From a phage, in sequence record OZ336093.1: DNA of 64,000 nucleotides; one strand, given 5' to 3'. Shown piece after piece: positions 31,711 through 59,503 of this stretch. Each line of letters begins with the position of its first letter. Position 1 is the first letter of the stretch. The notes beneath the pieces are model-generated. The model was not told the DNA's origin. It did no database searches and was given only the letters and a program-made list of their open reading frames with translations. A program made the translations under genes and the position numbers.

Positions 31711-34077
31711 ATGCGCATGGTAAATGACCACGCAGAAGTGATTAAGAGTTCAACTTCTTTAGAGACGTCTCAAGCACAGATTACAATGACACCTGAGATG
31801 TTCAGCCTTTTGAGTTCTGGTGTATATACCTTTAAAGAAAGGGCAGTGATTCGTGAACTGTCATGTAACGCAGTAGATGCTCAGAAAGAAGCTGGAAAAG
31901 AGAACATCCCATTCCATGTGCATTTACCTACTCGTTTTGAGCCTTACTTCGAAGTTCGTGATTTTGGAACTGGATTGACTCATGATAAAGTTATGAGTTT
32001 GTACCTAAACTATGGAGCTTCTACGAAGAATGACTCTAATGACTACATTGGTGCAATGGGTATCGGCTCAAAGTCACCATTTGCAATTGCTCAGTCATTC
32101 ACAGTATCTAGTTATGTTGACGGTGTTGTTAATAAGTACTCTGTTTATCTTGAGAATGGTATCCCTCAAGTAACTAAGCTGACAACTAACCAAACAAAAG
32201 AACCTAATGGTTTAGCTGTACGTGTGGCAGTTGCTGACCACCGTATCTCAAAGTTCTTTGAAGAAGCTGGGAATGTGTACTCATACTTCACTGTAAAACC
32301 AGAAAGTAATATTGAGTACGACGATGTATTAGCAGATATGAACGTAATTGCCCGTGAAGAAGGTGTTTATGATGCCATGATTCATAAGCACAGCTGGCGT
32401 TCTAGTGATAACAGGACAGAGTTTAATGTGGTGATGGGTAACATTGCCTACCCTGTTAATATGGAAGCATTACTTGGCGATGATTTCTTCAAAGTATTGC
32501 CAGAATTTTTCCGTAGGAGCGTAGACCTTGTAAACATCTACATGCCTATTGGTTCAGTTGCTATTGCAGCTTCTCGTGAAGCATTGCAGATGAATGACAC
32601 GACAAAAAATGTTATCATTGAGGCTACTAAAAAGATAACTGAAGCCATTACAAAGGATGTTATCAAAAAGATTAACAATCAGCCCACACTCATGGATGCT
32701 GCACAGGCTTATGCTGAGTTGCGTTTGAACTCACGAGAAATGTTTAATGCTGTGTGTCCAAAGCTAGAGTGGGGAGGCGTTAAGCTTGATTCTCTGGAAG
32801 AAGAGTTGCTAAACATTCGTCGCGGGATTATCTACGCAGAAGACGGCTCAGTCATTTATGAACGTGACGGTAAAGGTAATATTAAGGTTGATAGGAACGG
32901 GAACAATATCCCTAAAGTAGATTATCTTTATAACCCAGTTGCTTATGTCAAGTTCAACTCTTTAGAGAGTAAGATTCGTGCAACAGCACTTTCCTACACT
33001 CAAGAGGCAAGTATGTTCAATATCTTTGGTGCAATGCGTAAAAGCCAAATTGAACAGTTTTTGTTCGTGATTAATGACCGTCGCAATAAAAATGGTACTG
33101 AGAAGACTGTAGGCCGCAATCAGATTCTGCGTGGTGCATGTCGAGACTACGCCAGTGAGTCAAGTCTGTTTCACAGATACAATGGTATTGTGTTTGTATT
33201 CTCGACTGAAAAAGAGTTAGACGACCTAATCAATCTACACAAACTTGATAAAAGCTTGTTAAAGATTGTGAAGATGTCTGATAAGGAGCACCATTATCAG
33301 CGTAAAGAAGCTGTAAGAGGTGTTGTAAAACTCTGGAAAGCTGTTCCAGCAGAAGGTGTAGCTTCCTATAAAGAGGTTTCAGAGGACTTTGATACAATTG
33401 AAGAACCTCAGCTTTACATTAAGGCAATTGGTGACACAGTTGATGGCGAATGTTTTTGCTCATCTCCAGAAGATGTAGCCAAGTCAGTTGCTAATGTTAC
33501 AGGGAAGACAGTCTATGTTTTCCGAAAAGCAAATTGGAAAAAGATACCAGAAGACTGGATTGAAGTAGATGAGAAACTCTTGAACGACAGCTTAACTGAT
33601 GTTCATTGGATTAATCATAACAGGTATATGACACGTATCTATATGAATGGTGTCCTTGACCTTACAAGCAGTTGGATTATTGCCAGAAACTTTACGTTCA
33701 ATAACAGGAAGATTTCTCGTGGCTATTGCTATTCACGGGATACAAACAAAACTATCTTCCTAGAAGGAAATGAAGATGCTGTAGAGGCAATGTTCGGTAA
33801 AATCCAATACGTTGCTGCACCATTTGCATACACTTATACTATTAGTGTATTGAAAACTTTGAAAGACTGTCTTGACAATGATACAAAGCTTTACAAGAAA
33901 ATTAAGAAAGCTGGTGACCGTATGGTCATTAAGGTGACAAACTACCTTTCAAAAAGAAAACAAGAAAACTTCTTGCTTTCTCATTTAGATTGGAATAAAG
34001 TGTCACCCATCGAAGTGAGTAAGTTCTTAGGCTTTGATGTAAAATGTGTTCCAGAAGGGACTACAATTTATGATTAA
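31711..34077 (+). CDS. rIIA: rIIA-like protein (GHKL ATPase domain)
   Basis: Bergerat-fold motifs RELSCNAVDA, DFGTGL, GAMGIGSKSPFA; N-terminal region aligns by eye with T4 rIIA as I recall it. Confidence 0.8.
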   Translation: MRMVNDHAEVIKSSTSLETSQAQITMTPEMFSLLSSGVYTFKERAVIRELSCNAVDAQKEAGKENIPFHVHLPTRFEPYFEVRDFGTGLTHDKVMSLYLNYGASTKNDSNDYIGAMGIGSKSPFAIAQSFTVSSYVDGVVNKYSVYLENGIPQVTKLTTNQTKEPNGLAVRVAVADHRISKFFEEAGNVYSYFTVKPESNIEYDDVLADMNVIAREEGVYDAMIHKHSWRSSDNRTEFNVVMGNIAYPVNMEALLGDDFFKVLPEFFRRSVDLVNIYMPIGSVAIAASREALQMNDTTKNVIIEATKKITEAITKDVIKKINNQPTLMDAAQAYAELRLNSREMFNAVCPKLEWGGVKLDSLEEELLNIRRGIIYAEDGSVIYERDGKGNIKVDRNGNNIPKVDYLYNPVAYVKFNSLESKIRATALSYTQEASMFNIFGAMRKSQIEQFLFVINDRRNKNGTEKTVGRNQILRGACRDYASESSLFHRYNGIVFVFSTEKELDDLINLHKLDKSLLKIVKMSDKEHHYQRKEAVRGVVKLWKAVPAEGVASYKEVSEDFDTIEEPQLYIKAIGDTVDGECFCSSPEDVAKSVANVTGKTVYVFRKANWKKIPEDWIEVDEKLLNDSLTDVHWINHNRYMTRIYMNGVLDLTSSWIIARNFTFNNRKISRGYCYSRDTNKTIFLEGNEDAVEAMFGKIQYVAAPFAYTYTISVLKTLKDCLDNDTKLYKKIKKAGDRMVIKVTNYLSKRKQENFLLSHLDWNKVSPIEVSKFLGFDVKCVPEGTTIYD

Positions 34078-34088
34078 AGTGTTTGACA

Positions 34089-34108
34089 AGGGGCTTCAAA
34101 GCCCCTTA
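34089..34108 (+). terminator. hairpin, possible terminator
   Basis: AGGGGCTT-CAA-AGCCCCT; weak T-run. Confidence 0.4.
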
Positions 34109-34156
34109 AAATAGCATCACAAAATGATTTATTAACTAACAAGAGAGAGTAATAAG

Positions 34157-38616: not shown

Positions 38617-39402
38617 ATGGGTATTGTAAAAATCATCAAAGGTGATATCTTTGACGCATTTGATAAAGGTAAGTTTGACATCATTGGTCACGGTTGCAAC
38701 TGTATGAACTTCATGGGTGCAGGTATTGCAGCAACTATTTCCAAGCGTTATCCAAAAGTGTATGATACTGACACAGAAGTTTACCTGTTTGCAGGTGGCA
38801 TTCGTCACAAACCCTGTGAAAATTTACTAGGTAATTTCTCTGTAGCACGTTTAAAACAAGGCCGTATAGCTAACCTTTACACCCAACTTCATACTGGTAA
38901 AGATGCCCGATACAGTGCTTTAGAGTCATCTTTGAAACAGCTTAACAGATACTGTGAAGTTAACCAGTTGAAGAAAGTTGGTCTACCTATGATTGGTGCA
39001 GGTATCGGTGGGCTTGACCCTCAAGCTGTCACAGTTATCATTAATCAGGTGATGAAGAGTGTAGATGTTTATCTGTATGTCTATGAAGCAAAAATGTATA
39101 ATGAGTTACACTCAGGTTGGAAAAACTACTGTGAACCAGAATACTTTGCAGGTGTAGTTGTGTTCACAGATAACGAAGTTACCCTCTTCAGACGAAGAAA
39201 AGGTAAGATACATCAAAGTAACCCTCCGGTTGAAAAGATGTCTCTGAGTAACGCTCTAGTTACCCACCTGTCGAAGAGCAATCACAGGATTGCAGTAACA
39301 TTTGGCAGTGATGCAGATACTTATATCTATGCAAGAACTGATGAGGATATCGAGACAGTTTTCTCTTCACCAGAAGTTACCTTCTTAGACGCAAAGAACT
39401 AA
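38617..39402 (+). CDS. macro-domain protein (ADP-ribose binding/processing)
   Basis: N-terminal IIKGDIFDAFDKGKFDIIGHGCNCMNFMGAGIAATI matches macro-domain layout (GDI..., Gly-rich AGIA loop). Confidence 0.65.
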   Translation: MGIVKIIKGDIFDAFDKGKFDIIGHGCNCMNFMGAGIAATISKRYPKVYDTDTEVYLFAGGIRHKPCENLLGNFSVARLKQGRIANLYTQLHTGKDARYSALESSLKQLNRYCEVNQLKKVGLPMIGAGIGGLDPQAVTVIINQVMKSVDVYLYVYEAKMYNELHSGWKNYCEPEYFAGVVVFTDNEVTLFRRRKGKIHQSNPPVEKMSLSNALVTHLSKSNHRIAVTFGSDADTYIYARTDEDIETVFSSPEVTFLDAKN

Positions 39403-39469
39403 GAAACTCTGTAGAATATTCACAATAGACCAAGCCTTTCTTATCTGGTAAATTTTTCAGGTAAGGAGG

Positions 39470-39670
39470 GCTTTTTCATTTCAGAATTGTGCAGGTAGAT
39501 TTCTATAGAGAAACCTGTAGAGAAAATATTGAACTCCAAAGAGAAAATTCATTTTCAAACTGTGCAGATAATCTCCAAAGAGCTTTTTCATTTTCAAAAC
39601 GTGCAGACCCCGCTCAGGTCGGGCAAGGAAAATCATTTTAGATTTGTGCAGGTAGGTTTTTATAGAGAGC
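39470..39670. repeat. four iteron-like direct repeats (core TTTTCAnAnnTGTGCAG)
   Basis: copies centred near 39489, 39562, 39601, 39647; copies 1 and 4 share TGTGCAGGTAGrTTTyTATAGAGA. Confidence 0.6.
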
Positions 39671-39710
39671 CAGACCAACCCCTCTCCCCCTCTTACTCCC
39701 CCTCTCCCCA
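39671..39710. repeat. C-rich polypyrimidine tract
   Basis: ccagaccaacccctctccccctcttactccccctctcccc. Confidence 0.8.
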
Positions 39711-39831
39711 AAAGTCAAGAGAAAAATTTGTAGCGGATTGAAAAATAATTCTTGATTTGTGTTCTGTTTTGTGGTAGTCGTGTGCGCCCGTTTCATTACA
39801 GTTTTGCCAAAAATATTTTTAAAATTTTTTC

Positions 39832-39860
39832 TTGACTCTTTGAACGTGGTTATCTAGTAT
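39832..39860 (+). promoter_or_regulatory. sigma70-like promoter TTGACT-N17-TAGTAT followed by GGGGAGG/CCTTCCCC stem-loop
   Basis: first unit of the recurring promoter/stem-loop/leader cassette. Confidence 0.5.
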
Positions 39861-39923
39861 TTGCATCAACGGGGAGGGAATGACCTTCCCCACTAAATAA
39901 AGTCCTAAACTGGAGATTCAAAA

Positions 39924-40307
39924 ATGGCATATCGTGCACCTAAATTCATCAACAAAGACAACTTTCGCAACGCACTGGAGAAGTCACTTGATGAGAATTT
40001 TAAAGGTAACATTATCGTTGTTCACGCATTCAATTTTAAGTATGATGTAAACGGGAATAGAATCAACCATTACACGGCAACCATGTTAGATGGTACACTT
40101 TCAAGTGAAAAAGCCGTACTAAATGCACTGGCAGGACGTGGAAAGGTATTAGTAAGATGTGATAAGAGACGTTATCAGGGCGGCGCATATGGTTATGATG
40201 ATGCTGTTTACCATCTTGAAAATATGGGCTATCAAGTAGAAAAAGCTGGAGCATCACAAATCATCGGCAGCGATGGTTATGTAACTATCTTCAAAATTAA
40301 CAAATAA
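39924..40307 (+). CDS. hypothetical protein (ORFan cassette gene)
   Basis: 127 aa; conserved leader ...CTAAACTGGAGATTCAAAA before ATG. Confidence 0.5.
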   Translation: MAYRAPKFINKDNFRNALEKSLDENFKGNIIVVHAFNFKYDVNGNRINHYTATMLDGTLSSEKAVLNALAGRGKVLVRCDKRRYQGGAYGYDDAVYHLENMGYQVEKAGASQIIGSDGYVTIFKINK

Positions 40308-40393
40308 AGTACTTTACAAGGGGCTTATAGTTCGATAAAGTAAGCCCCAGATAAAGAGCTTTACCACTAAATCCTAAATTGGAGAACTTAAAA

Positions 40394-40687
40394 ATGGCTA
40401 TTATCAAAAACGTTGTAATTACTGCAAAGACTCGTGATGACGCTCGCGTTATGGCTAAAAAGTTATGCGGGAAAGTGGTTGACAATGGAAAACAATCCGC
40501 TGTAAGGTGGGGCGTGAAGGTTGATAAACAGTTGAAGTTAAAAAATTCACCGATAAACCTTTTTACATGTGTAAACACTATCGGGAAGACAAATGTATAC
40601 ACGAAAAAGGCATACATTAGGCGCGTAGCATTAACATCCCCCATTCGTACAATGAGAAGTTATGCAAAGCTGAAAATTAACAAATAA
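40394..40687 (+). CDS. hypothetical protein (ORFan cassette gene)
   Basis: 97 aa; start set at ATG after conserved leader. Confidence 0.5.
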   Translation: MAIIKNVVITAKTRDDARVMAKKLCGKVVDNGKQSAVRWGVKVDKQLKLKNSPINLFTCVNTIGKTNVYTKKAYIRRVALTSPIRTMRSYAKLKINK

Positions 40688-40772
40688 AGTACTTTACAGG
40701 GGGCTTAAAAGTTGATATCTTAAGCCCCAGATAAAGAGCTTTACCACTCAATCCTAAACTGGAGATTCTAAA

Positions 40773-41285
40773 ATGAAAACTGTAGACGCTACCTTTGAAG
40801 TTGTAAAAGAAAAATTTTCCATCATCTACGAAGCGGTAAATTGCTACGAAGCAAGCCATAATCTCGATAATTGGGAGTTTACAAACGACCATCAAGGCGG
40901 TGTGACTGTTAAAAATCCTAACTGTCAGCATAATGATTTTAAATATGCAATCCCTTTGCATTACAGCCTTAAACAGCTTTCAAGTGACTATGCAAAACAA
41001 GGCCGGGAAAATCCATCAAAAGAGGCTTACGCAAGCTTACAAAAAGAACTAGAAAGAGATTTAGAGGCTTCAGAGTACAGCCTTGCCGCGAAAGTTGTGG
41101 ATGCAAACGGTAACACGGTTTTAGAAAGTTTTTATCTTGGTTATGCTTTCGATTGGTGCTATCGTGACGGCGATGATTTAGAGGATAGACTAAAAGAAGA
41201 GGTGAACAATTCAGACGCAGAAACTGAAGTATTAGAACGTTTGGAATCGTTGAAAGATTCAGTGATGAATATCTTTAAGAACTAA
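40773..41285 (+). CDS. hypothetical protein (ORFan cassette gene)
   Basis: 170 aa; conserved leader. Confidence 0.5.
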   Translation: MKTVDATFEVVKEKFSIIYEAVNCYEASHNLDNWEFTNDHQGGVTVKNPNCQHNDFKYAIPLHYSLKQLSSDYAKQGRENPSKEAYASLQKELERDLEASEYSLAAKVVDANGNTVLESFYLGYAFDWCYRDGDDLEDRLKEEVNNSDAETEVLERLESLKDSVMNIFKN

Positions 41286-41377
41286 ATAGATTTCTTTACA
41301 CGGGGTTATCAAGCTGGTAGGATAGCCCCAGATAAAGAGATTTATCAAATAAAGCCCTTAAACTAGGAGATTCTAAA

Positions 41378-41674
41378 ATGAAATTATCAAATCAAGTGCG
41401 TGAAAATCTGAGCAAATTACTCAACAAAATTGATTTCATTGAAACATCAAGGAATAGCCATGATGTTATGGAATGGTTACACGGCAAAATAAAAGGTCGT
41501 CGTGTAGTGATTTGCTTATGGAACAGTTGCAGGGAGTATAAAAAACCTGTATTACAAGTCAATATCTATGATGATACTTTTAAAAGTCCAGTAAAGTCTA
41601 AAAGCGATTTATTAGAATCTTATGAGATATCTGTAAATGGCAAAGTATCACGTAATGAGGTAACACCATGTTAA
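41378..41674 (+). CDS. hypothetical protein (ORFan cassette gene)
   Basis: 98 aa; conserved leader. Confidence 0.5.
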   Translation: MKLSNQVRENLSKLLNKIDFIETSRNSHDVMEWLHGKIKGRRVVICLWNSCREYKKPVLQVNIYDDTFKSPVKSKSDLLESYEISVNGKVSRNEVTPC

Positions 41675-42000
41675 TGACTGGTATCACTGCAATCATTGCC
41701 ATTTTCGCGCTATATAAGGCATATAAAGCCTATAATCTAGCAAATAAGGCAATCACACAGCAGGTTAGTAATAACCTTGTAGAAAGCTTTCTAGGGCGCC
41801 TCAGTGATGAGCAAATAAAGCGGCTAGAGATGAGCTTCAGATATAAAGCGAAAACCTATCAGATAAGTGACATCTTTAAAGATGATTTTCAGTTAGTTGA
41901 TGATTATAATTCTCTGATAAATGCTTTAAACGTCAGTGACTTGAAAGACTATCACGCTGTAATTGTTCAAGAATTGAGCAAACGAAAACAAAACTGTTGA
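41668..42000 (+). CDS. hypothetical protein with N-terminal TM helix
   Basis: 110 aa ORF. Confidence 0.45.
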   Translation: MLMTGITAIIAIFALYKAYKAYNLANKAITQQVSNNLVESFLGRLSDEQIKRLEMSFRYKAKTYQISDIFKDDFQLVDDYNSLINALNVSDLKDYHAVIVQELSKRKQNC

Positions 42001-42025
42001 CACTGGTTTTCAGATAGATTAAATT
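41997..42025 (+). promoter_or_regulatory. sigma70-like promoter TTGACA-N17-TAAATT
   Basis: followed by GGGGAGGGAATGACCTTCCCC stem-loop and conserved leader. Confidence 0.55.
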
Positions 42026-42088
42026 ACACACCAACGGGGAGGGAATGACCTTCCCCACTAAATAAAGTCCTAAACTGGAGATTCAAAA

Positions 42089-42247
42089 ATGTTTTTTGCA
42101 GGTGATAAAGTTGTCTGGAATGATATAGATGACGGTTTATGTACGAAAGTTGTTGTTATCTTAGAAATTGATTATATCACTGGTGTTGCAACTGTAGCAG
42201 ATAATGATATAATCTTTGATGTCTTAATTAGTGAACTGTCAAAATAA
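42089..42247 (+). CDS. hypothetical small protein (ORFan cassette gene)
   Basis: 52 aa; not in track; own promoter/leader cassette. Confidence 0.4.
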   Translation: MFFAGDKVVWNDIDDGLCTKVVVILEIDYITGVATVADNDIIFDVLISELSK

Positions 42248-42272
42248 AATCCTTAAACTAGGAGCTTTTAAA

Positions 42273-42545
42273 ATGTACACTACTAACAACGGTCGCACTT
42301 TAAACGTAACCCTTCGTCACTATGTGAACGGTGTAATGCACTTCGAGGATTTACAAGCCGAACAACATATCTTAGATTGGCAACTAGCAGGACTCCAAAA
42401 AACTGCTACCGGATACGGCAAAAAGATTCCAACTAGCTGGAAAGTACACTATGAAGGACGTTTGCGCAGAATTTACCAAGATGTATGCAGCAATAGCGCA
42501 TCTAGTTACATCATAGTAAAAGGTAAAAAGCTGCATTTAGTATAA
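42273..42545 (+). CDS. hypothetical protein (ORFan cassette gene)
   Basis: start at Met after leader ...CTAGGAGCTTTTAAA. Confidence 0.45.
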   Translation: MYTTNNGRTLNVTLRHYVNGVMHFEDLQAEQHILDWQLAGLQKTATGYGKKIPTSWKVHYEGRLRRIYQDVCSNSASSYIIVKGKKLHLV

Positions 42546-42630
42546 AGTACTTTACAGGGGGCTTATAAGTCTGTACAGTAAGCTCCCGATAAAGAATTTT
42601 ATCACTCAATCCTAAATTGGAGACTCTAAA

Positions 42631-43035
42631 ATGGCTATTAATAATCGTGAACTGGCTGTATTAAAAGCACGTTTGACCGTCAACCGCATCAACGTTATTA
42701 CATCAGCAGCACCGGACGAAACATTACACAACATTATCGGGAAGATTCAAGGCGTTATCTTAGACGTTGAAAATGTAAAAAACTCATTAGCCGACGTTGC
42801 AGCAGGTATCACACTAGATGGCGCACAATATGAAATGTCCGACATGTTAGGTAAATCAAAGGTAATGAATAAAGAGATTGATTTAAAAATGTTTAGATTT
42901 GCCGTGAAAGTGTGGCTATCTGTTGAGTATGACGCTAATTTTGCAATCGCTGATTTCTTTGCCACATGGTTGCAACGTAATTTGGCGAGTCATGACTTCC
43001 GTGACATCTGCGATGCAATTTACGCAGAACTCTAA
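42631..43035 (+). CDS. hypothetical protein (ORFan cassette gene)
   Basis: 134 aa; type B leader (GGGGCTTA..TAAGC hairpin). Confidence 0.5.
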   Translation: MAINNRELAVLKARLTVNRINVITSAAPDETLHNIIGKIQGVILDVENVKNSLADVAAGITLDGAQYEMSDMLGKSKVMNKEIDLKMFRFAVKVWLSVEYDANFAIADFFATWLQRNLASHDFRDICDAIYAEL

Positions 43036-43043
43036 AAATTTTA

Positions 43044-43072
43044 TTGACACTGATTTTTAGATAGATTAAATT
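43044..43072 (+). promoter_or_regulatory. sigma70-like promoter TTGACA-N17-TAAATT
   Basis: near-identical to the promoter at 41997. Confidence 0.55.
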
Positions 43073-43136
43073 ACTCATCAACGGGGAGGGAATAACCTTC
43101 CCACTAAGTAAAGTCCTTAAACTAGGAGATTCAAAA

Positions 43137-43385
43137 ATGATGAATTTTTTAAATATCCCTGATACTTGCCGACTGTTGACGCAACCAGAAAATTTAGGCA
43201 AACCTTTCCTGTACCATATGCCAGACAATACACCAAAAACATATAGCTACACGGTTAACCGCTTTACGGGTTACGCTGCAAAAAACGGTTACAAGGTTAC
43301 TACTCAAAAAGTAACACTATTTACAAATATCGAAGAGCTTCCAACAATCGCTGTAAAACTAATATTTACGAAGAAGACGCAATAA
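43137..43385 (+). CDS. hypothetical protein (ORFan cassette gene)
   Basis: 82 aa. Confidence 0.45.
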   Translation: MMNFLNIPDTCRLLTQPENLGKPFLYHMPDNTPKTYSYTVNRFTGYAAKNGYKVTTQKVTLFTNIEELPTIAVKLIFTKKTQ

Positions 43386-43470
43386 AGTACTTTACAGGGG
43401 GCTTAAAAGTTGATATCTTAAGCCCCAGATAAAGAGCTTTACCACTAAATCCTAAACTGGAGATTCTAAA

Positions 43471-43674
43471 ATGACTATTATTAACGGCGTATCTATCGAG
43501 ACTGTACATATCAAAGACATTAAAGTTGGTGATGTAGTCCTTTCCCACGGCGTAGAGAAAACTGTCACTGCAAAGGATATCAAAGATGATTCTTTCATGG
43601 GTAGAACTCTCTTCGGTGATTCTTATTGCTTAGGTTATCTTGCAGTTTTAAAAGTTGTAAAAAATAACAAATAA
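43471..43674 (+). CDS. hypothetical protein (ORFan cassette gene)
   Basis: 67 aa; C-terminal KNNK then repeat AAGTACTTTACA. Confidence 0.45.
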   Translation: MTIINGVSIETVHIKDIKVGDVVLSHGVEKTVTAKDIKDDSFMGRTLFGDSYCLGYLAVLKVVKNNK

Positions 43675-43759
43675 AGTACTTTACAAGGGGCTTATAGTTC
43701 GATAAAGTAAGCCCCAGATAAAGAGCTTTACCAATCAATCCTAAACTGGAGATTCTAAA

Positions 43760-44302
43760 ATGAAATGTTTTCACGGTACTACTCAAGAAAATTTCCTCAA
43801 CCTGATTAATAACGGTAACAAGCCATCAGGTGCATGGAATTGTTCGGATATGGACGGCAATTTTTACGTGTATCCAGAAAATAAAATCTATGGCGACGAT
43901 GAGGAAGAGATAACATCGGAGGGCATTCAGCAAGCTCTAGGCAATGCCACTATCACCGCAGCTTTTCAGATGAAGACTCAAAATATTGTTATCTTAGAAC
44001 TCGATATTCCAGAGGATGAGCTAAATGATGATTATTCTTGTGATAATATGTCTGGCGTAGCAAGTTTTACAGAATACTTCGATTTAAATTGGATTAAAAA
44101 GGTTTACGTAACCGAGTTTAATGCGATGTTTTCACCTTTTTGTCTTCCTTCACTGGATAACCCAAATATGAACTATCTTGATGAGACATTAGAACTACTT
44201 GCTAAAAGTGTTCAACAATCGGACAGTATTCAGGTTTTTTGTGACATCATGGATACACTGACAGAAAACATCGCAGAAGAGGATTTAAAGAGCTTTTTCT
44301 AA
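43760..44302 (+). CDS. hypothetical acidic protein (ORFan cassette gene)
   Basis: 180 aa. Confidence 0.5.
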   Translation: MKCFHGTTQENFLNLINNGNKPSGAWNCSDMDGNFYVYPENKIYGDDEEEITSEGIQQALGNATITAAFQMKTQNIVILELDIPEDELNDDYSCDNMSGVASFTEYFDLNWIKKVYVTEFNAMFSPFCLPSLDNPNMNYLDETLELLAKSVQQSDSIQVFCDIMDTLTENIAEEDLKSFF

Positions 44303-44367
44303 AACCTATACAATCACCTTATAAACACTGATTAGCCCCTCACAGGGGCTTTTAGAGGGCTTAAATC

Positions 44368-44601
44368 ATGCTTACAACCGTTTATCTCATCCTTTCTATT
44401 TGTAATGGCCATTCATGTGACTTTAAAGGGCTTGAGGAGTTTACAGGGAGTAAAGAAAATGCTGTTCAAGTGTGCCAGATAGCAAGGCAAGACTACCCCG
44501 CCAGTGATGATATACAATGTTACTTTAAGACAGAAGATGAAGACGGTATCTATTTTGACAGCGTAGATGGTCAGTATGAAATTATCATTGAAAAAGACTA
44601 G
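44368..44601 (+). CDS. hypothetical small protein
   Basis: 77 aa; preceded by AGCCCCTCACAGGGGCT hairpin. Confidence 0.4.
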   Translation: MLTTVYLILSICNGHSCDFKGLEEFTGSKENAVQVCQIARQDYPASDDIQCYFKTEDEDGIYFDSVDGQYEIIIEKD

Positions 44602-44691
44602 ACAAGCCTGATAAAAATCTGTAAATTGTCAATAAACGGGGAGGGAATGACCTTCCCCACTAAATAAAGTCCTAAACTGGAGATTCTAAAA

Positions 44692-45033
44692 ATGGCTTAT
44701 GTAACTGTAATTACCAATAAAGAAAATTCATCTTGGTCAACTCAAGTCAGTGATAAGATGTCACCTATGCAGTGCCTAAAATACTTTGAGCAGTGGAACA
44801 AAGGCGAGGGTGTCAGCCCCTTTCAAGTGATGCAAATCATCCATACGGATAACGAAGGGAACAAAACGACACTTAATAGCGAATATTACGCAAATCGTTT
44901 TGAGAGTCGAGTTGAAACGATGAAGGGGCTACGTGAGGCCGGATATGGGCACATTGCCGCCCTGTTATGGGATAACCTACTAAAAAACCAACGTATCAGC
45001 TATGTAAAACCTGAAAAAATATTCATCAGTTAA
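44692..45033 (+). CDS. hypothetical protein (ORFan cassette gene)
   Basis: 113 aa; type A leader. Confidence 0.5.
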   Translation: MAYVTVITNKENSSWSTQVSDKMSPMQCLKYFEQWNKGEGVSPFQVMQIIHTDNEGNKTTLNSEYYANRFESRVETMKGLREAGYGHIAALLWDNLLKNQRISYVKPEKIFIS

Positions 45034-45230
45034 TCAATAACTTACAAAAAACTTTTAAAAAAGTGTTGACAATACCCATTGACATTGGTAACTTTGTTCG
45101 AGGGGGTTATCTAAAAGGGATTCACTTAACAGATTCTTTATATATAAACTTAAAAATTGCTTGCAATCACTTTCTAAAAGCCCTATAGTATCTATCAAGC
45201 AAAACAACTTCCTAAACTGGAGAAATCAAG

Positions 45231-45758
45231 ATGAATAAGTTCACAGCAATCAATACTATTCGCTCAAAAGACGTAATGAAAAAGCCTGTCAAGGATACTT
45301 TCGAATTTACCCTGAAAGATAAAACTTTTGCAGTTATCACGAAAGGGGAAGATAAGAAATATTACATACATCGCCCAAATCAGCAAATGATAACAGCTAA
45401 CAGCTTTATGAAGGCCGTAGCGGTTATCCTGCCGGATTATATGGCTATCGTCGCAGAAATTCACGAAATGGCTATCAAGGCGACTAAAAACGAGCTAAAC
45501 CAATACAAAATGGCTTATGAACGCTCTATAAAGTCTCATAACCTTTTTATTGCAATTTTCTACACTGGCGTGTCTGCTACTGGTACAGGCAATCAACAAC
45601 ACCCAATCTATGAAGTTGAAAAACTGTTTACAAGTGAATACAAAACAGATATTTTTAAAGTAACGTTAGGCAAGGCATTAACAGACTTAATCAAGCTTTA
45701 CGAAAAATCTTTAAAAAATTTAGAAAATGCACTTGACGAAACGTTATCAAATCTTTAA
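45231..45758 (+). CDS. hypothetical protein (ORFan cassette gene)
   Basis: 175 aa; upstream TTGACA boxes. Confidence 0.5.
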   Translation: MNKFTAINTIRSKDVMKKPVKDTFEFTLKDKTFAVITKGEDKKYYIHRPNQQMITANSFMKAVAVILPDYMAIVAEIHEMAIKATKNELNQYKMAYERSIKSHNLFIAIFYTGVSATGTGNQQHPIYEVEKLFTSEYKTDIFKVTLGKALTDLIKLYEKSLKNLENALDETLSNL

Positions 45759-45824
45759 AGTATCTATCAAGGGGAAGAAATCACTTCCCCACTAAATAAA
45801 GTCCTTAAACTAGGGGTTATCAAG

Positions 45825-46088
45825 ATGGAAAACGTAGAATTAACCACACTATTGCAGATTGCAACTGACAAAGAAGATGTAGCACTGTTTCACCGTATCG
45901 AAAGCGATTTATTCAATGGTGAAATCATCAAAGAATCTTACGAAGTTGTCGGATTCAAAGATGGTAAAGCATTTGGATTCTTTGACCTCGACAAAGGCAA
46001 CGCTGTTACAAAGTACGATGTTTTGTCTTGTGAGATTCTTACAAAATACAACGAAAAAAGGCTTGCAACATACGCCAATATGCAGTAA
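45825..46088 (+). CDS. hypothetical protein (ORFan cassette gene)
   Basis: 87 aa. Confidence 0.45.
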   Translation: MENVELTTLLQIATDKEDVALFHRIESDLFNGEIIKESYEVVGFKDGKAFGFFDLDKGNAVTKYDVLSCEILTKYNEKRLATYANMQ

Positions 46089-46152
46089 ATTACTAATTAA
46101 CGGGGGATGACCTCCCCCACTAAGTAAAGTCCTAAACTGGAGAATCTAAATT

Positions 46153-46401
46153 ATGTCAACTATCCGCGTAACTGTTAATGCTTATGGCTGCCACGAACTT
46201 GATGCAAAATTCGATATCGGTGGAACAAATAACACCTTTGACCTTATCAAAATGCTGATTCAGCAGGTGCTACCAGATTATAACCCTACCGATGACTTTT
46301 GGAAGGACGCTGTAAAAGAAGCCATAAACGAGGAATATCACTACCACTACTGGGGAGAAAAAATTGTCTCCCTGTACTACAACAAGCAAGATTATAACTA
46401 A
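46153..46401 (+). CDS. hypothetical protein (ORFan cassette gene)
   Basis: 82 aa; last gene of plus-strand block. Confidence 0.45.
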   Translation: MSTIRVTVNAYGCHELDAKFDIGGTNNTFDLIKMLIQQVLPDYNPTDDFWKDAVKEAINEEYHYHYWGEKIVSLYYNKQDYN

Positions 46402-46439
46402 TCGACGCAGCGGGGCTATTTAGCCCCAGATACCTTGAC

Positions 46440-46465
46440 AGCCCCTATTTAAAGGGGCTTTTTTA
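46440..46465 (+). terminator. rho-independent terminator ending the plus-strand block
   Basis: GCCCCT-ATTTAA-AGGGGC followed by TTTTTT. Confidence 0.7.
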
Positions 46466-47098
46466 CGTCTATCCAATCCTTATACAATCCCTTTCCTTTC
46501 CTTTCCAGAATCTTACTAGACCTTAAAAGCAATAACTCTATAGTCTACTCTATAACCTCTTATCAAATCAACTTAAATAAAAGCCAATAACCCCAGAAAG
46601 GGGATGGCCCATTTAAACGCTCTATAAAGCTCTATAACATCCTTATCAACCTAACTTAAGGGATTGCATTAACTCACCCTAAAAAGCCCTTTATAAAGCT
46701 TCCTAGAGACTTAAAAGAATCTTATAAGGGTGTAAGCTTTATCGTCTCGTTAGTATTCTTGTGAATAACTAAACAACCCCTTGATAGTCACTAAAAAGTA
46801 TGTTATAGGGGCTATAAAGTAGCTTAAAAGTTGCTTAAAAGTTACGTAAATGCTAGCCCCCTTAACATTTTCTTAACAATTTCTTAACAATCCCTACATA
46901 GTTATGCTTGTTAGAGACTTGTTAGCCCCTTGTTAAATCTCTGTTAAGACCACGTAAAAACCTTGTAAGAGTCTTTGACATAGCCTTAAAAGCTCCTGTA
47001 AAGCCCTATAAAGAGCTATCCATACAGTTGAGGGGTAGATACTAGGAAGAGGCTTAAAAGAACTTATAAGGGGCTATAGAGAGCTTTTAAGAGGCATG

Positions 47099-48061
47099 TT
47101 TAGAGAATCACTAAGAGAGAAAGGGAACGATAAGAAAAGAGATAGTGACCATGTTAATAGCTTGTTAAAAAGATTAAACACTTGTTAGGAACTTGTTAAT
47201 TATCCCTACAAAATAACTCTTTAAAATTAACTTGTTAGCTCTTGTTAGTCATCTGTTAAGATTCTGTAAAGTCTATGTATCAACTGTTAAGAAACTGTTA
47301 CATCCCTGTTAGTTCTGTTAAGAGTCTATTAAGACCTTTGAAGAGTTGTTAAGAGCTTGAGAGAGTTGTTAAGAGATTGTTAAGGATATTTTAAAATTTT
47401 GCAAAGTACTTGTAAGGGAGTTGTTAAGGGTTACCAAGCAGATATACATCCTCAACAGATATTTTTGAGTTCCTTCAAAGACCCTAAAAAATGACTTGAT
47501 AGCCCTATTTTATAAAAATTTTAAAATTCTGAATAATTACCTAGACAGTCTTTTAAAAATACAGGCATAAACAGGCTTATTTAGAGAATCACTAAGAGAG
47601 AAAGGGAACGATAAGAAAAGAGATAGTGACCATGTTAATAGCTTGTTAAAAAGATTAAACACTTGTTAGGAACTTGTTAATTATCCCTACAAAATAACTC
47701 TTTAAAATTAACTTGTTAGCTCTTGTTAGTCATCTGTTAAGATTCTGTAAAGTCTATGTATCAACTGTTAAGAAACTGTTACATCCCTGTTAGTTCTGTT
47801 AAGAGTCTATTAAGACCTTTGAAGAGTTGTTAAGAGCTTGAGAGAGTTGTTAAGAGATTGTTAAGGATATTTTAAAATTTTGCAAAGTACTTGTAAGGGA
47901 GTTGTTAAGGGTTACCAAGCAGATATACATCCTCAACAGATATTTTTGAGTTCCTTCAAAGACCCTAAAAAATGACTTGATAGCCCTATTTTATAAAAAT
48001 TTTAAAATTCTGAATAATTACCTAGACAGTCTTTTAAAAATACAGGCATAAACAGGCTTAT
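47099..48061. repeat. perfect tandem duplication, 2 x 481 bp, non-coding
   Basis: unit TTTAGAGAATCACTAAGAGAG...AACAGGCTTAT at 47099-47580 repeats at 47580-48061, identical as far as I can read; dense in CTGTTAAG/TTGTTAG motifs. Confidence 0.85.
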
Positions 48062-48504
48062 AAGATACCTTGTTAGTACCGTGTTAGACCTTGTGAGATA
48101 AGGTCTGTAAAGATATTCCTGTTAAGTTTGTTAAAACAGTCTATATAGAGGCTTAGTAGCTCCTAGTGAACACCTATAGAGGGTATCATAGCTGACATAG
48201 AGATTAAGAGGTGTATAGGAGCTTCTAAGAGGGTGTAGAGAGATGGTTAAGGTGATTGTATAGGTTGTTAAGAAGGCTTGTTAGAGGGCTTGTTAGAAGG
48301 GTTATACAGAGGGGCTATTAAGACCACTAGATAGTTACTAAGACACTATATAGTACTATATAACTATATAGAGAGTAAGATTAAGAAGGTTGTTAAGAAG
48401 GATAGATATTTTATTCACATATGATGGTGACCCAGAGGTTGGGACAACCGATAAAATTTTATAAAAATTAAAAAGCCCCCGATTAAGGAGGCTCTTAAGA
48501 TATT

Positions 48505-49098
48505 TTAAATCAGTGTTTCCAGAACTGTTTTCAGGGATGACTTAGTTGTCTGATAAAAATGAGTGAATCCGTTGTTGTTATCGAATATCTGCATCATAAT
48601 ATCATCTCCCTTGATTGGATACACTCGGATATCATAGTGAAACCCGTTAAAGACAGCAGAACCATTACAGAACACACTAAAATCGTCCACTGAGATATAC
48701 TCTTCATGTCCTGTGATTTTTATACAGACGCCTTTGCTCGGTCTCTTAGGGTTGATATCTTCCATCACAGACATACTCTGTCCACCAAGAGATACCATAG
48801 TGACCACTTTACGGTTCTTCTGTCTAAAGTACATTTTAACTTTCTGTAAAGTGTCTTCATAGAACGGATAAGACTTCTCTACAAAGATTCCTTCAAGTGG
48901 CTCTTTACCATTTTCAACTTCTCTGGTATGTCGTACTGCAAAGATAATTTGTTGGAACCAGTCAAGATTTTCTTCGGAGAGTGCTTCACGAACATCACTC
49001 CAGTCAAGGACTAGGTAGTTGCCTTCAACTTCTTTTAAGTTATCTTTTTCCATACCTATCACACCGTTATCGTAAAACTTGGTAAGCTGGTACTGCAA
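48505..49098 (-). CDS. hypothetical protein
   Basis: 197 aa ORF; start may be at the internal Met. Confidence 0.5.
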   Translation of the reverse strand: MQYQLTKFYDNGVIGMEKDNLKEVEGNYLVLDWSDVREALSEENLDWFQQIIFAVRHTREVENGKEPLEGIFVEKSYPFYEDTLQKVKMYFRQKNRKVVTMVSLGGQSMSVMEDINPKRPSKGVCIKITGHEEYISVDDFSVFCNGSAVFNGFHYDIRVYPIKGDDIMMQIFDNNNGFTHFYQTTKSSLKTVLETLI

Positions 49099-58410: not shown

Positions 58411-58487
58411 CTCTGTTTAGCTCAGCTTGGTAGAGCGTTCCGTTTGGGGCGGTAAGGCCGGAGGTTCAAGTCCTCCAACAGAGACCA
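58411..58487 (+). tRNA. tRNA-Pro (anticodon TGG)
   Basis: hand-folded cloverleaf, 7 bp acceptor, T-arm GGAGG-TTCAAGT-CCTCC, CCA encoded. Confidence 0.7.
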
Positions 58488-58494
58488 AATTAAT

Positions 58495-58572
58495 GTTCCA
58501 GTAGACAAAATGGTAAAGTCACCACTCTTTCAAAGTGGATATCTGAGGGTTCAAATCCCTTCTGGAACGCCA
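58495..58572 (+). tRNA. tRNA-Glu (anticodon TTC)
   Basis: acceptor GTTCCAG/CTGGAAC, anticodon loop CTTTCAA, CCA encoded. Confidence 0.7.
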
Positions 58573-58579
58573 GTTTTGA

Positions 58580-58655
58580 CAGAAGACCAATTACAGCAAA
58601 CTTAATCTTATTCATCTGAAGGTAAATCGGACAAAGAAGAGATTTGGTCTGGTCA
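58580..58655 (+). ncRNA. structured RNA element, copy 1 (5' AGAAGACCAA / 3' TTGGTCTGG closing stem)
   Basis: conserved 5' block CAGAAGACCnnTTACAGCAA and 3' block GGTCTGG; stem covaries between copies. Confidence 0.5.
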
Positions 58656-58663
58656 TTAAGAAT

Positions 58664-58740
58664 TGCGGGTATAGAGAAAGGGCGTCTCACATGTCTCATT
58701 AGCATGGTATCGGCAGGTTCGACTCCTGCACCCGCCTCCA
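58664..58740 (+). tRNA. tRNA with anticodon CAT (Met or Ile2), irregular fold
   Basis: T-arm GCAGG-TTCGACT-CCTGC and CCA present; acceptor/D-arm register ambiguous. Confidence 0.5.
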
Positions 58741-58746
58741 AATTTG

Positions 58747-58808
58747 CAGAAGACCGTATTCAGCAACAAAATACTTTTTGCGGATAAAAGAAAAAACACG
58801 GTCTGGCA
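58747..58808 (+). ncRNA. structured RNA element, copy 2 (5' AGACCGT / 3' ACGGTCT stem)
   Basis: same conserved blocks as copy 1 with compensatory stem changes. Confidence 0.5.
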
Positions 58809-58817
58809 ATGTATTAA

Positions 58818-58894
58818 GGTTAGGAAGCACATAAGGTATGTGCGGTCGCCTGTTAAGCGAATGGCACAGGGTTCGAATCCCTGACTAACCGCCA
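58818..58894 (+). tRNA. tRNA-Asn (anticodon GTT)
   Basis: acceptor GGTTAGG/ACTAACC, loop CTGTTAA, CCA encoded. Confidence 0.7.
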
Positions 58895-58903
58895 AATTTA
58901 AAT

Positions 58904-58991
58904 GTGTCGTTATCCCGTAGATGGTAGCGGTGGGGACTGTAAATCCCTTGTCATTGAGACTCGGTAGGTTCGACTCCTACACGGCACACCA
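58904..58991 (+). tRNA. tRNA-Tyr (anticodon GTA), long variable arm
   Basis: loop CTGTAAA, long variable arm, T-arm GTAGG-TTCGACT-CCTAC, CCA encoded. Confidence 0.7.
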
Positions 58992-58996
58992 ATAAA

Positions 58997-59074
58997 GGTT
59001 ATGTAGTTTAATTTGGTTAAAATGCTCCCCTGTCACGGGAGATGATGAGGGTTCAAATCCCTTCGTAACCGCCA
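58997..59074 (+). tRNA. tRNA-Asp (anticodon GTC)
   Basis: stem CTCCC/GGGAG around loop CTGTCAC, CCA encoded. Confidence 0.7.
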
Positions 59075-59135
59075 ATTTTGAGAGGGCTATTTAGCCCCTC
59101 CCTTAAAGGGTTCTTACGAGTATCCTTTAAAGGGG

Positions 59136-59211
59136 CAGAAGACCAAATACAGCAAGAATGTATGAAATTTCAAGCCAATTTAATTTTGAAAATTTAAAAC
59201 TTGGTCTGGCT
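59136..59211 (+). ncRNA. structured RNA element, copy 3 (5' AGACCAA / 3' TTGGTCT stem)
   Basis: conserved CAGAAGACCAAATACAGCAA and TTGGTCTGG. Confidence 0.5.
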
Positions 59212-59222
59212 CAACAAATTTA

Positions 59223-59356: not shown

Positions 59357-59503
59357 ATTATCTTTGTAGATAAGTTATTAAGCTTACCTGTGAGTATGCG
59401 ACCACAAAGGGTGAAAGGGTAAATTCTAGATTTAAACCCAACAAGGCACATCGCTACAGACCTTAAGCAAGTCTGGGTAGCTTATCTACAAAGATAATTT
59501 AAT

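What the first reader, a model, noticed from the sequence alone, without database searches (positions are those of the whole stretch)
39832..46401. Array of about 16 small ORFan genes, each with its own promoter/stem-loop/leader cassette
Genes of 50-180 aa are each preceded by one of two conserved units: type A (TTGACA-N17-TAAATT promoter, GGGGAGGGAATGACCTTCCCC stem-loop, leader ACTAAATAAAGTCCTAAACTGGAGATTCAAAA-ATG) or type B (AAGTACTTTACAGGGGGCTTA...TAAGCCCCAGATAAAGAGCTTTACCACTAAATCCTAAACTGGAGATTCTAAA-ATG). The repeats run into the last codons of the preceding gene (several end KINK/NNK). This resembles the promoter-early stem-loop shuffling cassettes of T4-type phages, and such loci commonly hold host-takeover or anti-defence genes.
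Basis: partly seen in the sequence, partly recalled or inferred. Interest (0 to 1): 0.7.

Follow-up and report, generated by a model that had tools for sequence, protein, structure and literature searches.

The report
Shuffling promoter cassettes, Felix O1-type phage
In a Felix O1-like phage, a 6.6-kb block of 16 small early genes is built from self-contained units (host-type promoter, G/C hairpin, shared ribosome-binding leader), and related phages gain, lose and swap genes exactly at these repeated units, as was already described for T4-type phages.

Summary
Window 39832-46465 carries 16 unrelated + strand genes of 52-180 aa. Twelve are preceded by one of two repeated units, six type A and six type B. 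The window is a Felixounavirus.

Type A is a sigma70-like promoter (17-nt spacer, -10 usually TAAATT) followed about 4 nt after the predicted start by a G-run/C-run hairpin. Both types end in the same leader, CCT(T)AAACT(A)GGAG.

Among 23 complete related arrays there are 22 different gene contents (9-18 genes). 26 of 29 distinct breakpoint positions lie in the cassettes, which are 28% of the array (p about 7e-12). Junctions carry 19-112 nt of shared repeat. The promoter and hairpin stay at a position while open reading frames move, and two genes swap order.

This is a PeSL-like hyperplastic early region in a non-T4 phage, with different cassette anatomy. I rate it a new variant of a known kind.

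The genes are not true ORFans. One of them (43760-44302) is confidently predicted to have an ADP-ribosyltransferase fold.

The parts
39432..39483 (+). Intrinsic terminator closing the upstream operon; left boundary of the array (equals Felix O1 t13)
   Evidence: Terminator scan. Same sequence is listed as t13 in the Felix O1 paper.
39832..39923 (+). Type A cassette 1: TTGACT-N17-TAGTAT with an AT-rich upstream tract, hairpin 39871-39891, leader and SD
   Evidence: families D2, D3
39924..40307 (+). Gene 1 (W1), 127 aa, phrog_4495, unknown function; ends ...KINK, encoded by the start of the next cassette
40293..40393 (+). Type B cassette: TTTACA(40313)-N17-TAAAGT; extended hairpin including the stop codon; leader
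   Evidence: (D1)
40394..40687 (+). Gene 2 (W2), 97 aa, phrog_5089, unknown function
40673..40772 (+). Type B cassette: TTTACA(40693)-N17-TATCTT; 62-nt extended hairpin (-24.9 kcal/mol, z -3.8)
40773..41285 (+). Gene 3 (W3), 170 aa, phrog_4190; absent from 7 of 26 related arrays
41286..41377 (+). Diverged type B cassette: TTTACA-N17-TAGGAT; inner stem GGGGTTATC/GATAGCCCC and a 13-bp outer stem, both kept with a different sequence
41378..42000 (+). Genes 4 and 5 (W4 98 aa, W5 110 aa with an N-terminal hydrophobic segment), overlapping by ATGTTAA with no cassette between them. The W5 stop codon TGA lies inside the -35 TTGACA of the next cassette.
41997..42088 (+). Type A cassette: TTGACA-N17-TAAATT, hairpin 42036-42056, leader
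42089..42247 (+). Gene 6 (W6), 52 aa, no family; present in only 7 of 26 arrays. It is an insertion that takes over the A cassette of gene 7.
42248..42545 (+). Short leader (25 nt, CCTTAAACTAGGAG) plus gene 7 (W7), 90 aa, phrog_3436
42531..42630 (+). Type B cassette: TTTACA-N17-TACAGT
42631..43035 (+). Gene 8 (W8), 134 aa, phrog_4327
43044..43136 (+). Type A cassette: TTGACA-N17-TAAATT, hairpin, leader
43137..43385 (+). Gene 9 (W9), 82 aa, phrog_9030; in 4 of 26 arrays and in two different slots (before or after W10)
43371..43470 (+). Type B cassette: TTTACA-N17-TATCTT
43471..43674 (+). Gene 10 (W10), 67 aa, phrog_3623; ends ...KNNK
43660..43759 (+). Type B cassette: TTTACA-N17-TAAAGT
43760..44302 (+). 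Gene 11 (W11), 180 aa: predicted ADP-ribosyltransferase fold, with H5-G-T, Y36, D91 and S93 conserved across the family
44334..44354 (+). Terminator-like hairpin AGCCCCT-CAC-AGGGGCT followed by TTTT, upstream of gene 12 (no A/B cassette here)
44368..44601 (+). Gene 12 (W12), 77 aa, phrog_4640
44599..44691 (+). Type A cassette: TAGACA-N17-TAAATT, hairpin 44638-44658, leader
44692..45033 (+). Gene 13 (W13), 113 aa, phrog_4318; present in 26 of 26 arrays
45034..45230 (+). Atypical 197-nt upstream region of gene 14: TTGCAA-N17-TATAGT (45161-45189), no hairpin, standard leader CCTAAACTGGAG. Most relatives carry a type A cassette here.
45231..45758 (+). Gene 14 (W14), 175 aa, phrog_4725
45733..45824 (+). 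Type A cassette: TTGACG-N17-TAAAGT (inside the end of gene 14), hairpin GGGGAAG/CTTCCCC, leader
45825..46088 (+). Gene 15 (W15), 87 aa, phrog_7022; in 11 of 26 arrays
46063..46152 (+). Type A cassette: TTGCAA-N17-TAAATT (overlaps the stop codon of gene 15), hairpin GGGGGA/TCCCCC, leader
46153..46401 (+). Gene 16 (W16), 82 aa, phrog_4559
46412..46465 (+). Closing hairpin GGGGCTATTTAGCCCC followed by a strong intrinsic terminator (AGCCCCT...AGGGGCT + T6); right boundary (equals Felix O1 t23)

Best explanation
The array is the hyperplastic early accessory-gene region of a Felix O1-like myovirus. Most genes in it are autonomous expression modules.

A module starts, within or just after the last codons of the preceding gene, with an A/T-rich tract and a promoter for host sigma70 RNA polymerase. 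It contains a G-run/C-run hairpin and ends in a nearly invariant leader with the ribosome-binding site, CCT(T)AAACT(A)GGAG-N8-9-ATG.

In type A the hairpin lies about 4 nt after the predicted transcription start, so it would cap the 5' end of the mRNA. I infer a role in mRNA stability. In type B the promoter is nested in the hairpin: the 5' arm is the spacer, the -10 box is in the loop, and the -35 box pairs with the invariant GATAAAG downstream. Only read-through RNA from the upstream gene can therefore form the roughly 62-nt structure, which starts at that gene's stop codon. I infer that it is a 3' end, insulator or processing structure, possibly an RNase III-type site. It is not a canonical terminator.

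Because 10-13 copies of these 65-100-nt units lie in the same orientation within about 6 kb, homologous recombination between them deletes, inserts and swaps single ORFs. Every surviving gene keeps a promoter and a ribosome-binding site. The shared leader is the commonest crossover zone.

Shown here: the anatomy, its conservation, the hairpin pairing, and the position of indel junctions in relatives. Inferred: promoter activity, the role of the hairpins, and the recombination mechanism.
For: Promoters.
- In 26 arrays, type A (142 copies) has a 17-nt spacer in 141 and -10 TAAATT in 122.
- Type B (126 copies) has TTTACA in 126 of 126 and TAnnnT in 125 of 126, with a 17-nt spacer in 121.
- The T and A of the B -10 box are invariant although they lie in an otherwise variable loop.
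- Felix O1 homologues are maximally transcribed at 5 min (ORF16, 20, 21, 22) or 25 min.

Hairpins.
- B inner stem: 97.8% of cells paired, 2 double compensations, 9 one-sided G-U changes and 1 mismatch in the 7 core base pairs. Pairing falls to 61% or less when the 3' partner is slid by one column or more.
- B outer stem: paired in 91% of cells against 37-52% when shifted, with GC to UA covariation.
- Fold z-scores are -3.8 and -3.4.
- All A variants fold, mostly at -8 to -14 kcal/mol (a few degraded copies about -4), with different stems.

Plasticity.
- Only 1 of 251 phage records covers at least 80% of the array, against 211 of 277 and 192 of 251 for flanks of equal size.
- There are 22 architectures in 23 complete arrays.
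- 82 junctions fall into 30 classes and 29 distinct window positions, of which 26 lie outside coding bodies (28% of the array; binomial 7e-12).
- 17 classes carry 19-112 nt of repeat at the junction.

The cassette stays with the position, not with the gene.
- W10 is behind a type A unit unless W9 is inserted, in which case W9 takes the A unit and W10 gets a B unit.
- W7 loses its A unit to W6.
- W11 gets an A unit when W10 is deleted.
- W13 gets a B unit when an extra gene is inserted.
- W9 and W10 swap order while the cassette series A, B, B stays.

Other points.
- The 16 genes are not paralogues.
- The same A and B units occur in another genus (Suspvirus SUSP1). They are 82% (B) and 74% (A) identical to the window's, while the genes they flank are 64-75% identical at the DNA level.
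Against: - No transcription start, termination or processing data exist for this phage group in the library searched.
- The generic promoter scan is not enriched overall: 32 sites found against 24.9 expected.
- The -10 hexamers match the consensus at only 4 of 6 positions.
- The hairpins have no U-tract, so the PeSL-style terminator role is not supported.
- Covariation is limited because the copies are close relatives.
- Gene order is largely collinear. Many of the 22 architectures could therefore arise by ordinary recombination between co-infecting relatives that reassorts a smaller number of old indels, rather than by frequent new cassette-to-cassette events.
- Type B cassettes are about as similar between genera (0.82) as within a genome (0.85). 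Selection on the sequence, not ongoing gene conversion, may explain their uniformity.
- Three junction ends lie in coding sequence.
Confidence: 0.78

Rival explanations
1. These are ordinary conserved promoters and leaders of an early operon. The repeats are kept only by selection for expression. Indels end at gene boundaries because selection removes gene-disrupting events, not because the repeats mediate recombination.
For: Gene order is collinear. Type B cassettes are as similar between genera as within a genome. Cassettes are more conserved than the genes, as expected for functional regulatory DNA.
Against: These genes are individually dispensable (present in 4-24 of 26 arrays), so truncations would not be lethal. 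Yet 26 of 29 breakpoint positions are in cassettes. 17 junction classes carry 19-112 nt of the repeat exactly at the join, and chimeric A/B cassettes exist. W9 and W10 swap order between identical cassette series. Two promoter variants of type A alternate at the same orthologous slots in different phages.
Confidence: 0.12
2. The type B inverted repeat (GGGGCTTA-N13-TAAGCCCC over the spacer and -10 box) is a DNA operator for a dimeric phage repressor that shuts off the early promoters. It is not an RNA hairpin.
For: An inverted repeat overlapping the -10 box is the classic operator layout. The half-sites are highly conserved. The array genes peak at 5 or 25 min, but no shut-off was measured.
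Against: The arms covary: GGGGTTTA/TAAACCCC, GGTGCTTA/TAAGCACC, GGGGTTATC/GATAGCCCC. One-sided changes are transitions that give G-U on the sense strand (9 cells against 1 mismatch), which fits RNA pairing rather than a fixed protein-recognition sequence. An outer stem that includes the stop codon also pairs. Type A promoters have no such repeat over the promoter.
Confidence: 0.06
3. The hairpins are transcription terminators or attenuators, as in T4-type PeSLs. Each gene would then be a fully insulated monocistronic unit.
For: PeSL stem-loops of the same GGGG...CCCC type terminated transcription in a reporter assay. WebGeSTer annotated the type A hairpins of phage ASO1A as rho-independent terminators.
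Against: No U-tract follows any A or B hairpin (CCCCACUAAAUAAAG, CCCCAGAUAAAG). The terminator scan found only the two boundary terminators on the + strand as convincing sites. The type A hairpin lies downstream of its own promoter, so an efficient terminator there would abort the gene's own transcript.
Confidence: 0.1

Closest known systems
PeSLs (promoter-early stem-loops) of T4-type phages: RB49/phi1, T4/PST, KVP40/nt-1 (Arbiol et al. 2010, PMC2839356; Comeau et al. 2014, PMC4122927)
   Same: A composite unit of an AT-rich tract, a sigma70-like promoter (T4/PST consensus TTTACW-N17-TAYWAT, close to type B), a stem-loop of G-run...C-run, and SD plus ATG. The units are clustered in hyperplastic regions among small genes of unknown function. 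Indels, replacements and displaced ORFs between close relatives occur at the units.
   Different: The host phage is an unrelated myovirus lineage (Ounavirinae). The hairpin is not upstream of the promoter: it is downstream (A) or the promoter is nested inside it (B). There are two discrete cassette types that share one leader. The hairpins have no U-tract. Terminator function and mini-circles were shown for PeSLs but are untested here.
Direct repeats reported in the Felix O1 genome paper (Whichard et al. 2010, PMC3185647) and promoter/terminator features in GenBank MZ726791 (ASO1A)
   Same: The same sequences. The 57-bp repeat CTTTACATGGGGCTTAAAAGTCTGTAAAGTAAGCCCCAGATAAAGAGCTTTACCACT is type B. 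The 39-bp repeat TTGACACTGGTTTTTAGATAGATTAAATTACACATCAAC is the type A promoter. ASO1A annotates the A promoters and calls the A hairpins terminators.
   Different: They were listed as repeats or isolated features. They were not recognised as cassettes, not compared across genomes, and type B was not recognised as a promoter.
RNase III processing hairpins between T7 early genes (own knowledge, not tested here)
   Same: An intercistronic interrupted hairpin of about 20 bp, starting right after a stop codon. It could leave a protective 3' hairpin on the upstream mRNA and a defined leader on the downstream one.
   Different: No cleavage data. The structure here doubles as a promoter. No Rfam family matched.
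Morons of lambdoid phages and the host-takeover module of Bacillus phage SPO1 (own knowledge)
   Same: Small accessory genes, each with its own promoter, form a variable early or accessory block, here lying about 0.7 kb from a likely terminal repeat.
   Different: Those systems do not use one repeated, near-identical cassette as both the regulatory unit and the recombination substrate.

Membership tests
PeSL (promoter-early stem-loop) cassettes | Sigma70-like early promoter with conserved -35 and -10 boxes and a 17-nt spacer | tested here: met
   Type A: 141 of 142 copies have a 17-nt spacer. Type B: TTTACA in 126 of 126 and TAnnnT in 125 of 126. This is sequence-level only; activity was not measured.
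PeSL (promoter-early stem-loop) cassettes | Stable stem-loop, typically GGGG...CCCC, adjacent to the promoter | tested here: met
   The G-run/C-run composition is the same as in RB49/phi1.
PeSL (promoter-early stem-loop) cassettes | Stem-loop located just upstream of the promoter | tested here: not met
   In type A the hairpin starts 10 nt after the -10 box. In type B the 5' arm is the spacer and the -10 box is in the loop. PeSL layout taken.
PeSL (promoter-early stem-loop) cassettes | Stem-loop functions as a transcription terminator | tested here: inconclusive
   No U-tract, and the consensus terminator scan does not pick the hairpins up. Function needs an experiment.
PeSL (promoter-early stem-loop) cassettes | AT-rich tract upstream of the -35 box, and SD plus start codon at the 3' end | tested here: met
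PeSL (promoter-early stem-loop) cassettes | Concentrated in a hyperplastic region, with indels and replacements between close relatives at the cassettes | tested here: met
PeSL (promoter-early stem-loop) cassettes | Recombination between neighbouring cassettes yields mini-circles | not testable with these tools
   Needs inverse PCR or long-read sequencing of lysates.
PeSL (promoter-early stem-loop) cassettes | Carried by T4-type phages | tested here: not met
   The window is a Felixounavirus (Ounavirinae).
Rho-independent terminators | GC-rich hairpin immediately followed by a U-tract | tested here: not met
   A and B hairpins are followed by ACUAAAUAAAG and AGAUAAAG. Only 39432-39483 and 46440-46465 qualify.
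ADP-ribosyltransferase fold (gene 11 only) | ART core fold | tested here: met
ADP-ribosyltransferase fold (gene 11 only) | NAD-site triad H-Y-[E/D/Q] | tested here: inconclusive
   H5 in 69 of 70, Y36 in 70 of 70, D91 in 70 of 70, E80 in 47 of 70. The placement of these residues in the active site was not checked by superposition. Pfam finds no domain apart from one weak PARP hit among 70 members.

The most novel reading that the evidence does not exclude
The type B unit may be a dual-use element. As DNA it is a sigma70 promoter. As read-through RNA it is a roughly 62-nt processing or insulator hairpin, so primary and processed mRNAs would receive the same leader. The near-invariant leader shared by 14 of 16 genes could let one phage factor switch the whole module off. 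The same units would act as docking sites for gene cassettes. Together this would make the array a phage counterpart of an integron, one that samples host-takeover and anti-defence genes such as the ART-fold protein.
Probability: 0.15. Interest if true: 0.75.

Novelty: new variant of a known kind. Interest (0 to 1): 0.45.

Why it matters
Felix O1-like phages are used in Salmonella and E. coli typing, biocontrol and therapy. Close relatives differ in which host defences stop them: Felix O1 and Alf5 are blocked by GiPD474 while VpaE1 is not (PMC12724215).

The array is the most variable 6-7 kb of otherwise 90%-identical genomes, so it is the obvious place to look for the genes behind such differences. 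The cassettes give a simple rule for where genes can be added or removed without disturbing their neighbours, which is useful for phage engineering.

The finding also shows that PeSL-type modular shuffling is not peculiar to T4-type phages. It adds a compact design with the promoter nested in the hairpin. Finally, it assigns an ADP-ribosyltransferase fold to a widespread family of small phage proteins that had no annotation.

Tried and rejected
- Rfam scan of 39300-48600 at E up to 1: no match.
- Pfam on all 16 proteins: nothing above threshold.
- PHROGs: only families of unknown function.
- PDB sequence searches for genes 1, 3, 8, 13, 14 and the gene 11 profile: nothing significant.
- My automatic clustering merged genes 7 and 10 into one family. 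This was an artefact of an ATG in the type A hairpin loop being read through the leader in a few loci. The two proteins share no similarity.
- Concerted evolution of cassettes: weak for type B (0.85 within a genome against 0.82 between genera) and moderate for type A (0.87 and 0.77 against 0.74). I do not use it as evidence for ongoing gene conversion.
- The small SD-sequestering stem (UCC...GGA against CCU...AGG, in two haplotypes with no mixed forms) could reflect a single ancestral event, so I do not claim it.
- The afdb50 fold library was unavailable.
- No transcript start-site study of a Felix O1-like phage was found. No paper linking PeSLs to Felix O1-like phages was found either.

Full report
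**Source and context**

The array region (window:39800-46450) matches Felix O1-like myoviruses (Felixounavirus, Ounavirinae). The best GenBank match is Escherichia phage KEP1, with 88% coverage at 90% identity. The window also holds rIIA/rIIB (31.7-35.3 kb), a Macro-domain gene (38617-39402) and 26 tRNA genes.

The array corresponds to Felix O1 ORF14-23. It lies between the terminators that the Felix O1 paper calls t13 and t23. That paper listed a 57-bp and a 39-bp direct repeat without interpreting them. They are the type B unit and the type A promoter.

**Observation**

Sixteen + strand ORFs of 52-180 aa fill 39924-46401.

- Six have a type A unit (genes 1, 6, 9, 13, 15, 16).
- Six have a type B unit (genes 2, 3, 4, 8, 10, 11; the copy before gene 4 is diverged).
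- Gene 5 overlaps gene 4.
- Gene 7 has only the 25-nt leader.
- Gene 12 follows a terminator-like hairpin.
- Gene 14 has the leader behind a different promoter region.

Within the window the motifs occur only here, and far above chance. The 16 proteins are unrelated to one another, so the repeats are not a by-product of gene duplication.

**Anatomy of type A**

The order is: an A/T-rich tract; a -35 box (TTGACA, TTGCAA, TAGACA, TTGACG, TTGATT or TTGACT); a 17-nt spacer (141 of 142 copies in 26 arrays); a -10 box (TAAATT in 122 of 142); 10 nt; a hairpin; then ACTAA(A/G)TAAAGTCC and the leader.

The expected start, about 7 nt after the -10 box, puts the hairpin 3-5 nt from the 5' end. The hairpin varies (GGGGAGGG/CCTTCCCC, GGGGAGG/CCTCCCC, GGGGAAG/CTTCCCC, GGGGGA/TCCCCC; in SUSP1 GGGGC/GCCCC). 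It nearly always folds at about -8 to -14 kcal/mol, though a few degraded copies reach only about -4.

From established work on E. coli mRNA decay (my own knowledge), a hairpin within about 4 nt of the 5' end protects against 5'-end-dependent decay. That is my inferred role for the type A hairpin.

**Anatomy of type B**

TTTACA is invariant (126 of 126). Exactly 17 nt later (121 of 126), inside the otherwise variable loop, there is always TAnnnT (125 of 126; TAAAGT, TATCTT, TATGAT, TAAGAT and others). The T and A are invariant columns of the alignment. So type B is a promoter whose spacer is the 5' arm (GGGGCTTA), whose -10 box sits in the loop, and whose 3' arm (TAAGCCCC) is the discriminator.

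A transcript started here begins at about the A of AGATAAAG and contains no hairpin (third fold, z -0.3). Read-through RNA from the upstream gene folds into a roughly 62-nt extended hairpin with three helices, starting at that gene's stop codon (-24.9 and -27.2 kcal/mol; z -3.8 and -3.4).

- Inner stem: 97.8% of cells paired, two double compensations, nine one-sided G-U changes and one mismatch in the seven core base pairs. Pairing drops to 61% or less when the partner is slid by one column or more.
- Outer stems: the -35 CUUUA pairs with the invariant UAAAG downstream, and UAAAGU pairs with GCUUUA. These are paired in 91% of cells, against 37-52% when shifted. One pair covaries GC to UA.
- The diverged copy before gene 4 keeps both stems with a different sequence.

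One-sided changes that give G-U on the sense strand favour an RNA structure over a protein operator. No U-tract follows, so it is not a canonical terminator. I infer a 3' end, insulator or processing role. An RNase III-type site is possible but untested.

A similar design, TTGACA with GGGGCTT-CAA-AGCCCC in the spacer and then TAAAAT, sits between rIIA and rIIB.

**Comparative test**

I fetched 29 related loci: 20 from IMG/VR through the Macro-domain gene, plus Felix O1, KEP1, ASO1A and six other GenBank phages. 26 arrays were analysed, of which 23 are complete.

- Order is largely collinear, but content ranges from 9 to 18 genes, with 22 different architectures among 23 complete arrays.
- W5, W7 and W13 are in all 26 arrays. 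W10 is absent from at least three (L014, L016, L021). W6 is in 7, W9 in 4 and W15 in 11. About a dozen extra ORF clusters in the automatic calls occur in one to eleven arrays; a few single-locus ones may be ORF-calling or frameshift artefacts.
- Only 1 of 251 phage records covers at least 80% of the array. For flanks of the same length the figures are 211 of 277 and 192 of 251.
- Against the window, 82 indel junctions fall into 30 classes and 29 distinct window positions. 26 of these lie outside coding bodies, which are 72% of the array (binomial 7e-12).
- Twelve deletion classes and five insertion classes carry 19-112 nt of the repeat at the join. The three exceptions are listed.

**What moves and what stays**

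The promoter-hairpin part stays with the position. The ORF, together with the cassette downstream of it, moves.

- W10 is behind a type A unit in most arrays. Where W9 is inserted upstream (the window and L004), W9 takes the A unit and W10 gets a B unit.
- W7 is behind A unless W6 is present. W6 then takes A and W7 keeps only a short leader.
- W11 is behind B, but behind A where W10 is deleted.
- W13 gets B where an extra gene is inserted.
- In L015 and L023 the order is W8-W10-W9-W11. In the window and L004 it is W8-W9-W10-W11. The cassette series A, B, B is unchanged.

This places most crossovers in the leader shared by A and B. Chimeric B/A cassettes joined at CCACTAAAT exist. Two type A promoter variants alternate at the same slot in different phages.

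The stop codon of W5 is the TGA inside the next -35 TTGACA. The KINK and NNK tails are encoded by the A/T-rich start of type B units.

**Depth of conservation**

Suspvirus SUSP1 has a Macro-domain protein only 65% identical to the window's. It has the same array with the same A and B units. Type B units are 82% identical between the two genera, while the genes they flank are 64-75% identical at the DNA level and 40-80% as protein.

The exact B motif occurs in IMG/VR only on contigs of 52-94 kb, mostly 81-94 kb. The cassettes are therefore old, selected features of the subfamily. Within-genome homogenisation is weak for B and moderate for A.

**Gene content**

None of the 16 proteins has a Pfam domain. 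Fifteen are in PHROGs of unknown function.

This is fold-level evidence. Activity and target are unknown.

Felix O1 RT-PCR puts ORF16, 20, 21 and 22 at 5 min, and ORF14, 17, 19 and 23 at 25 min.

**Comparison with known systems**

The closest known system is the PeSL of T4-type phages. It has the same components, the same genomic setting and the same evolutionary signature. The differences are the phage lineage, the position of the hairpin relative to the promoter, two cassette types sharing one leader, and the absence of a U-tract. Terminator activity and mini-circles, shown for PeSLs, are untested here.

I found no paper linking PeSLs to Felix O1-like phages. The repeats themselves were listed in 2010, and the type A promoters and hairpins are annotated as separate features in GenBank MZ726791.

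**Verdict**

This is a new variant of a known kind and is of moderate interest.

Noticed in passing
window 43760-44302: Gene 11 of the array is confidently predicted (pLDDT 95.8) to have an ADP-ribosyltransferase fold. H5-G-T, Y36, D91 and S93 are conserved across a family of at least 326 clusters that has no Pfam model.
   Followed up: yes
window 38617-39402: The gene just upstream of the array, annotated 'phosphatase' in relatives, has a Macro domain (PF01661, E 5e-7) and resembles T4 Tk.4. It is a possible ADP-ribose hydrolase lying 4.4 kb from the ART-fold gene.
   Followed up: partly
window 47092-48061: A perfect-looking tandem duplication of a 481-bp unit (2.0 copies, 99% identical). All related loci have a single copy. 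It may be the terminal repeat joined in the assembly, which would put a genome end about 0.7 kb past the array.
   Followed up: partly
window 46470-48500: About 2 kb without ORFs, between convergent gene blocks. It is packed with short repeats (GTTAAGA, CTTAAAAG, CTATAAAG; 11-, 12-, 19- and 20-nt tandem units). The function is unknown; packaging or origin region is a guess.
   Followed up: no
window 39476-39712: Four copies of a roughly 21-nt motif (TCATTTyCAnAnyTGTGCAGrT), spaced 39-60 nt apart, followed by a C-rich tract (CCCCTCTCCCCCTCTTACTCCCCCTCTCCCC). They lie between the upstream terminator and the first array promoter and are conserved in relatives.
   Followed up: no
window 34075-34115: The rIIA-rIIB intergenic region holds another promoter with a hairpin nested in its spacer: TAA-AGTG-TTTGACA-AGGGGCTTCAAAGCCCC-TTAAAAT.
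   Followed up: partly
window 39881-39901, 42046-42066, 44648-44668: The loop of the type A hairpin contains an ATG (GGGAATGACC) that opens a 6-codon upstream ORF (MTFPTK*). In a few relatives one base fewer in the 3' arm makes it read into the downstream gene, which misled the automatic ORF calls.
   Followed up: partly
L073 (Escherichia phage SUSP1, NC_028808.2 64800-76000): A different genus (Suspvirus) has the same array with 17 annotated genes, the same A and B units, and a slightly different common leader (AACAATCCTAAACTGGAGAATC).
   Followed up: yes
window 58411-63556: 26 tRNA genes in clusters, four more than the 22 reported for Felix O1.
   Followed up: no
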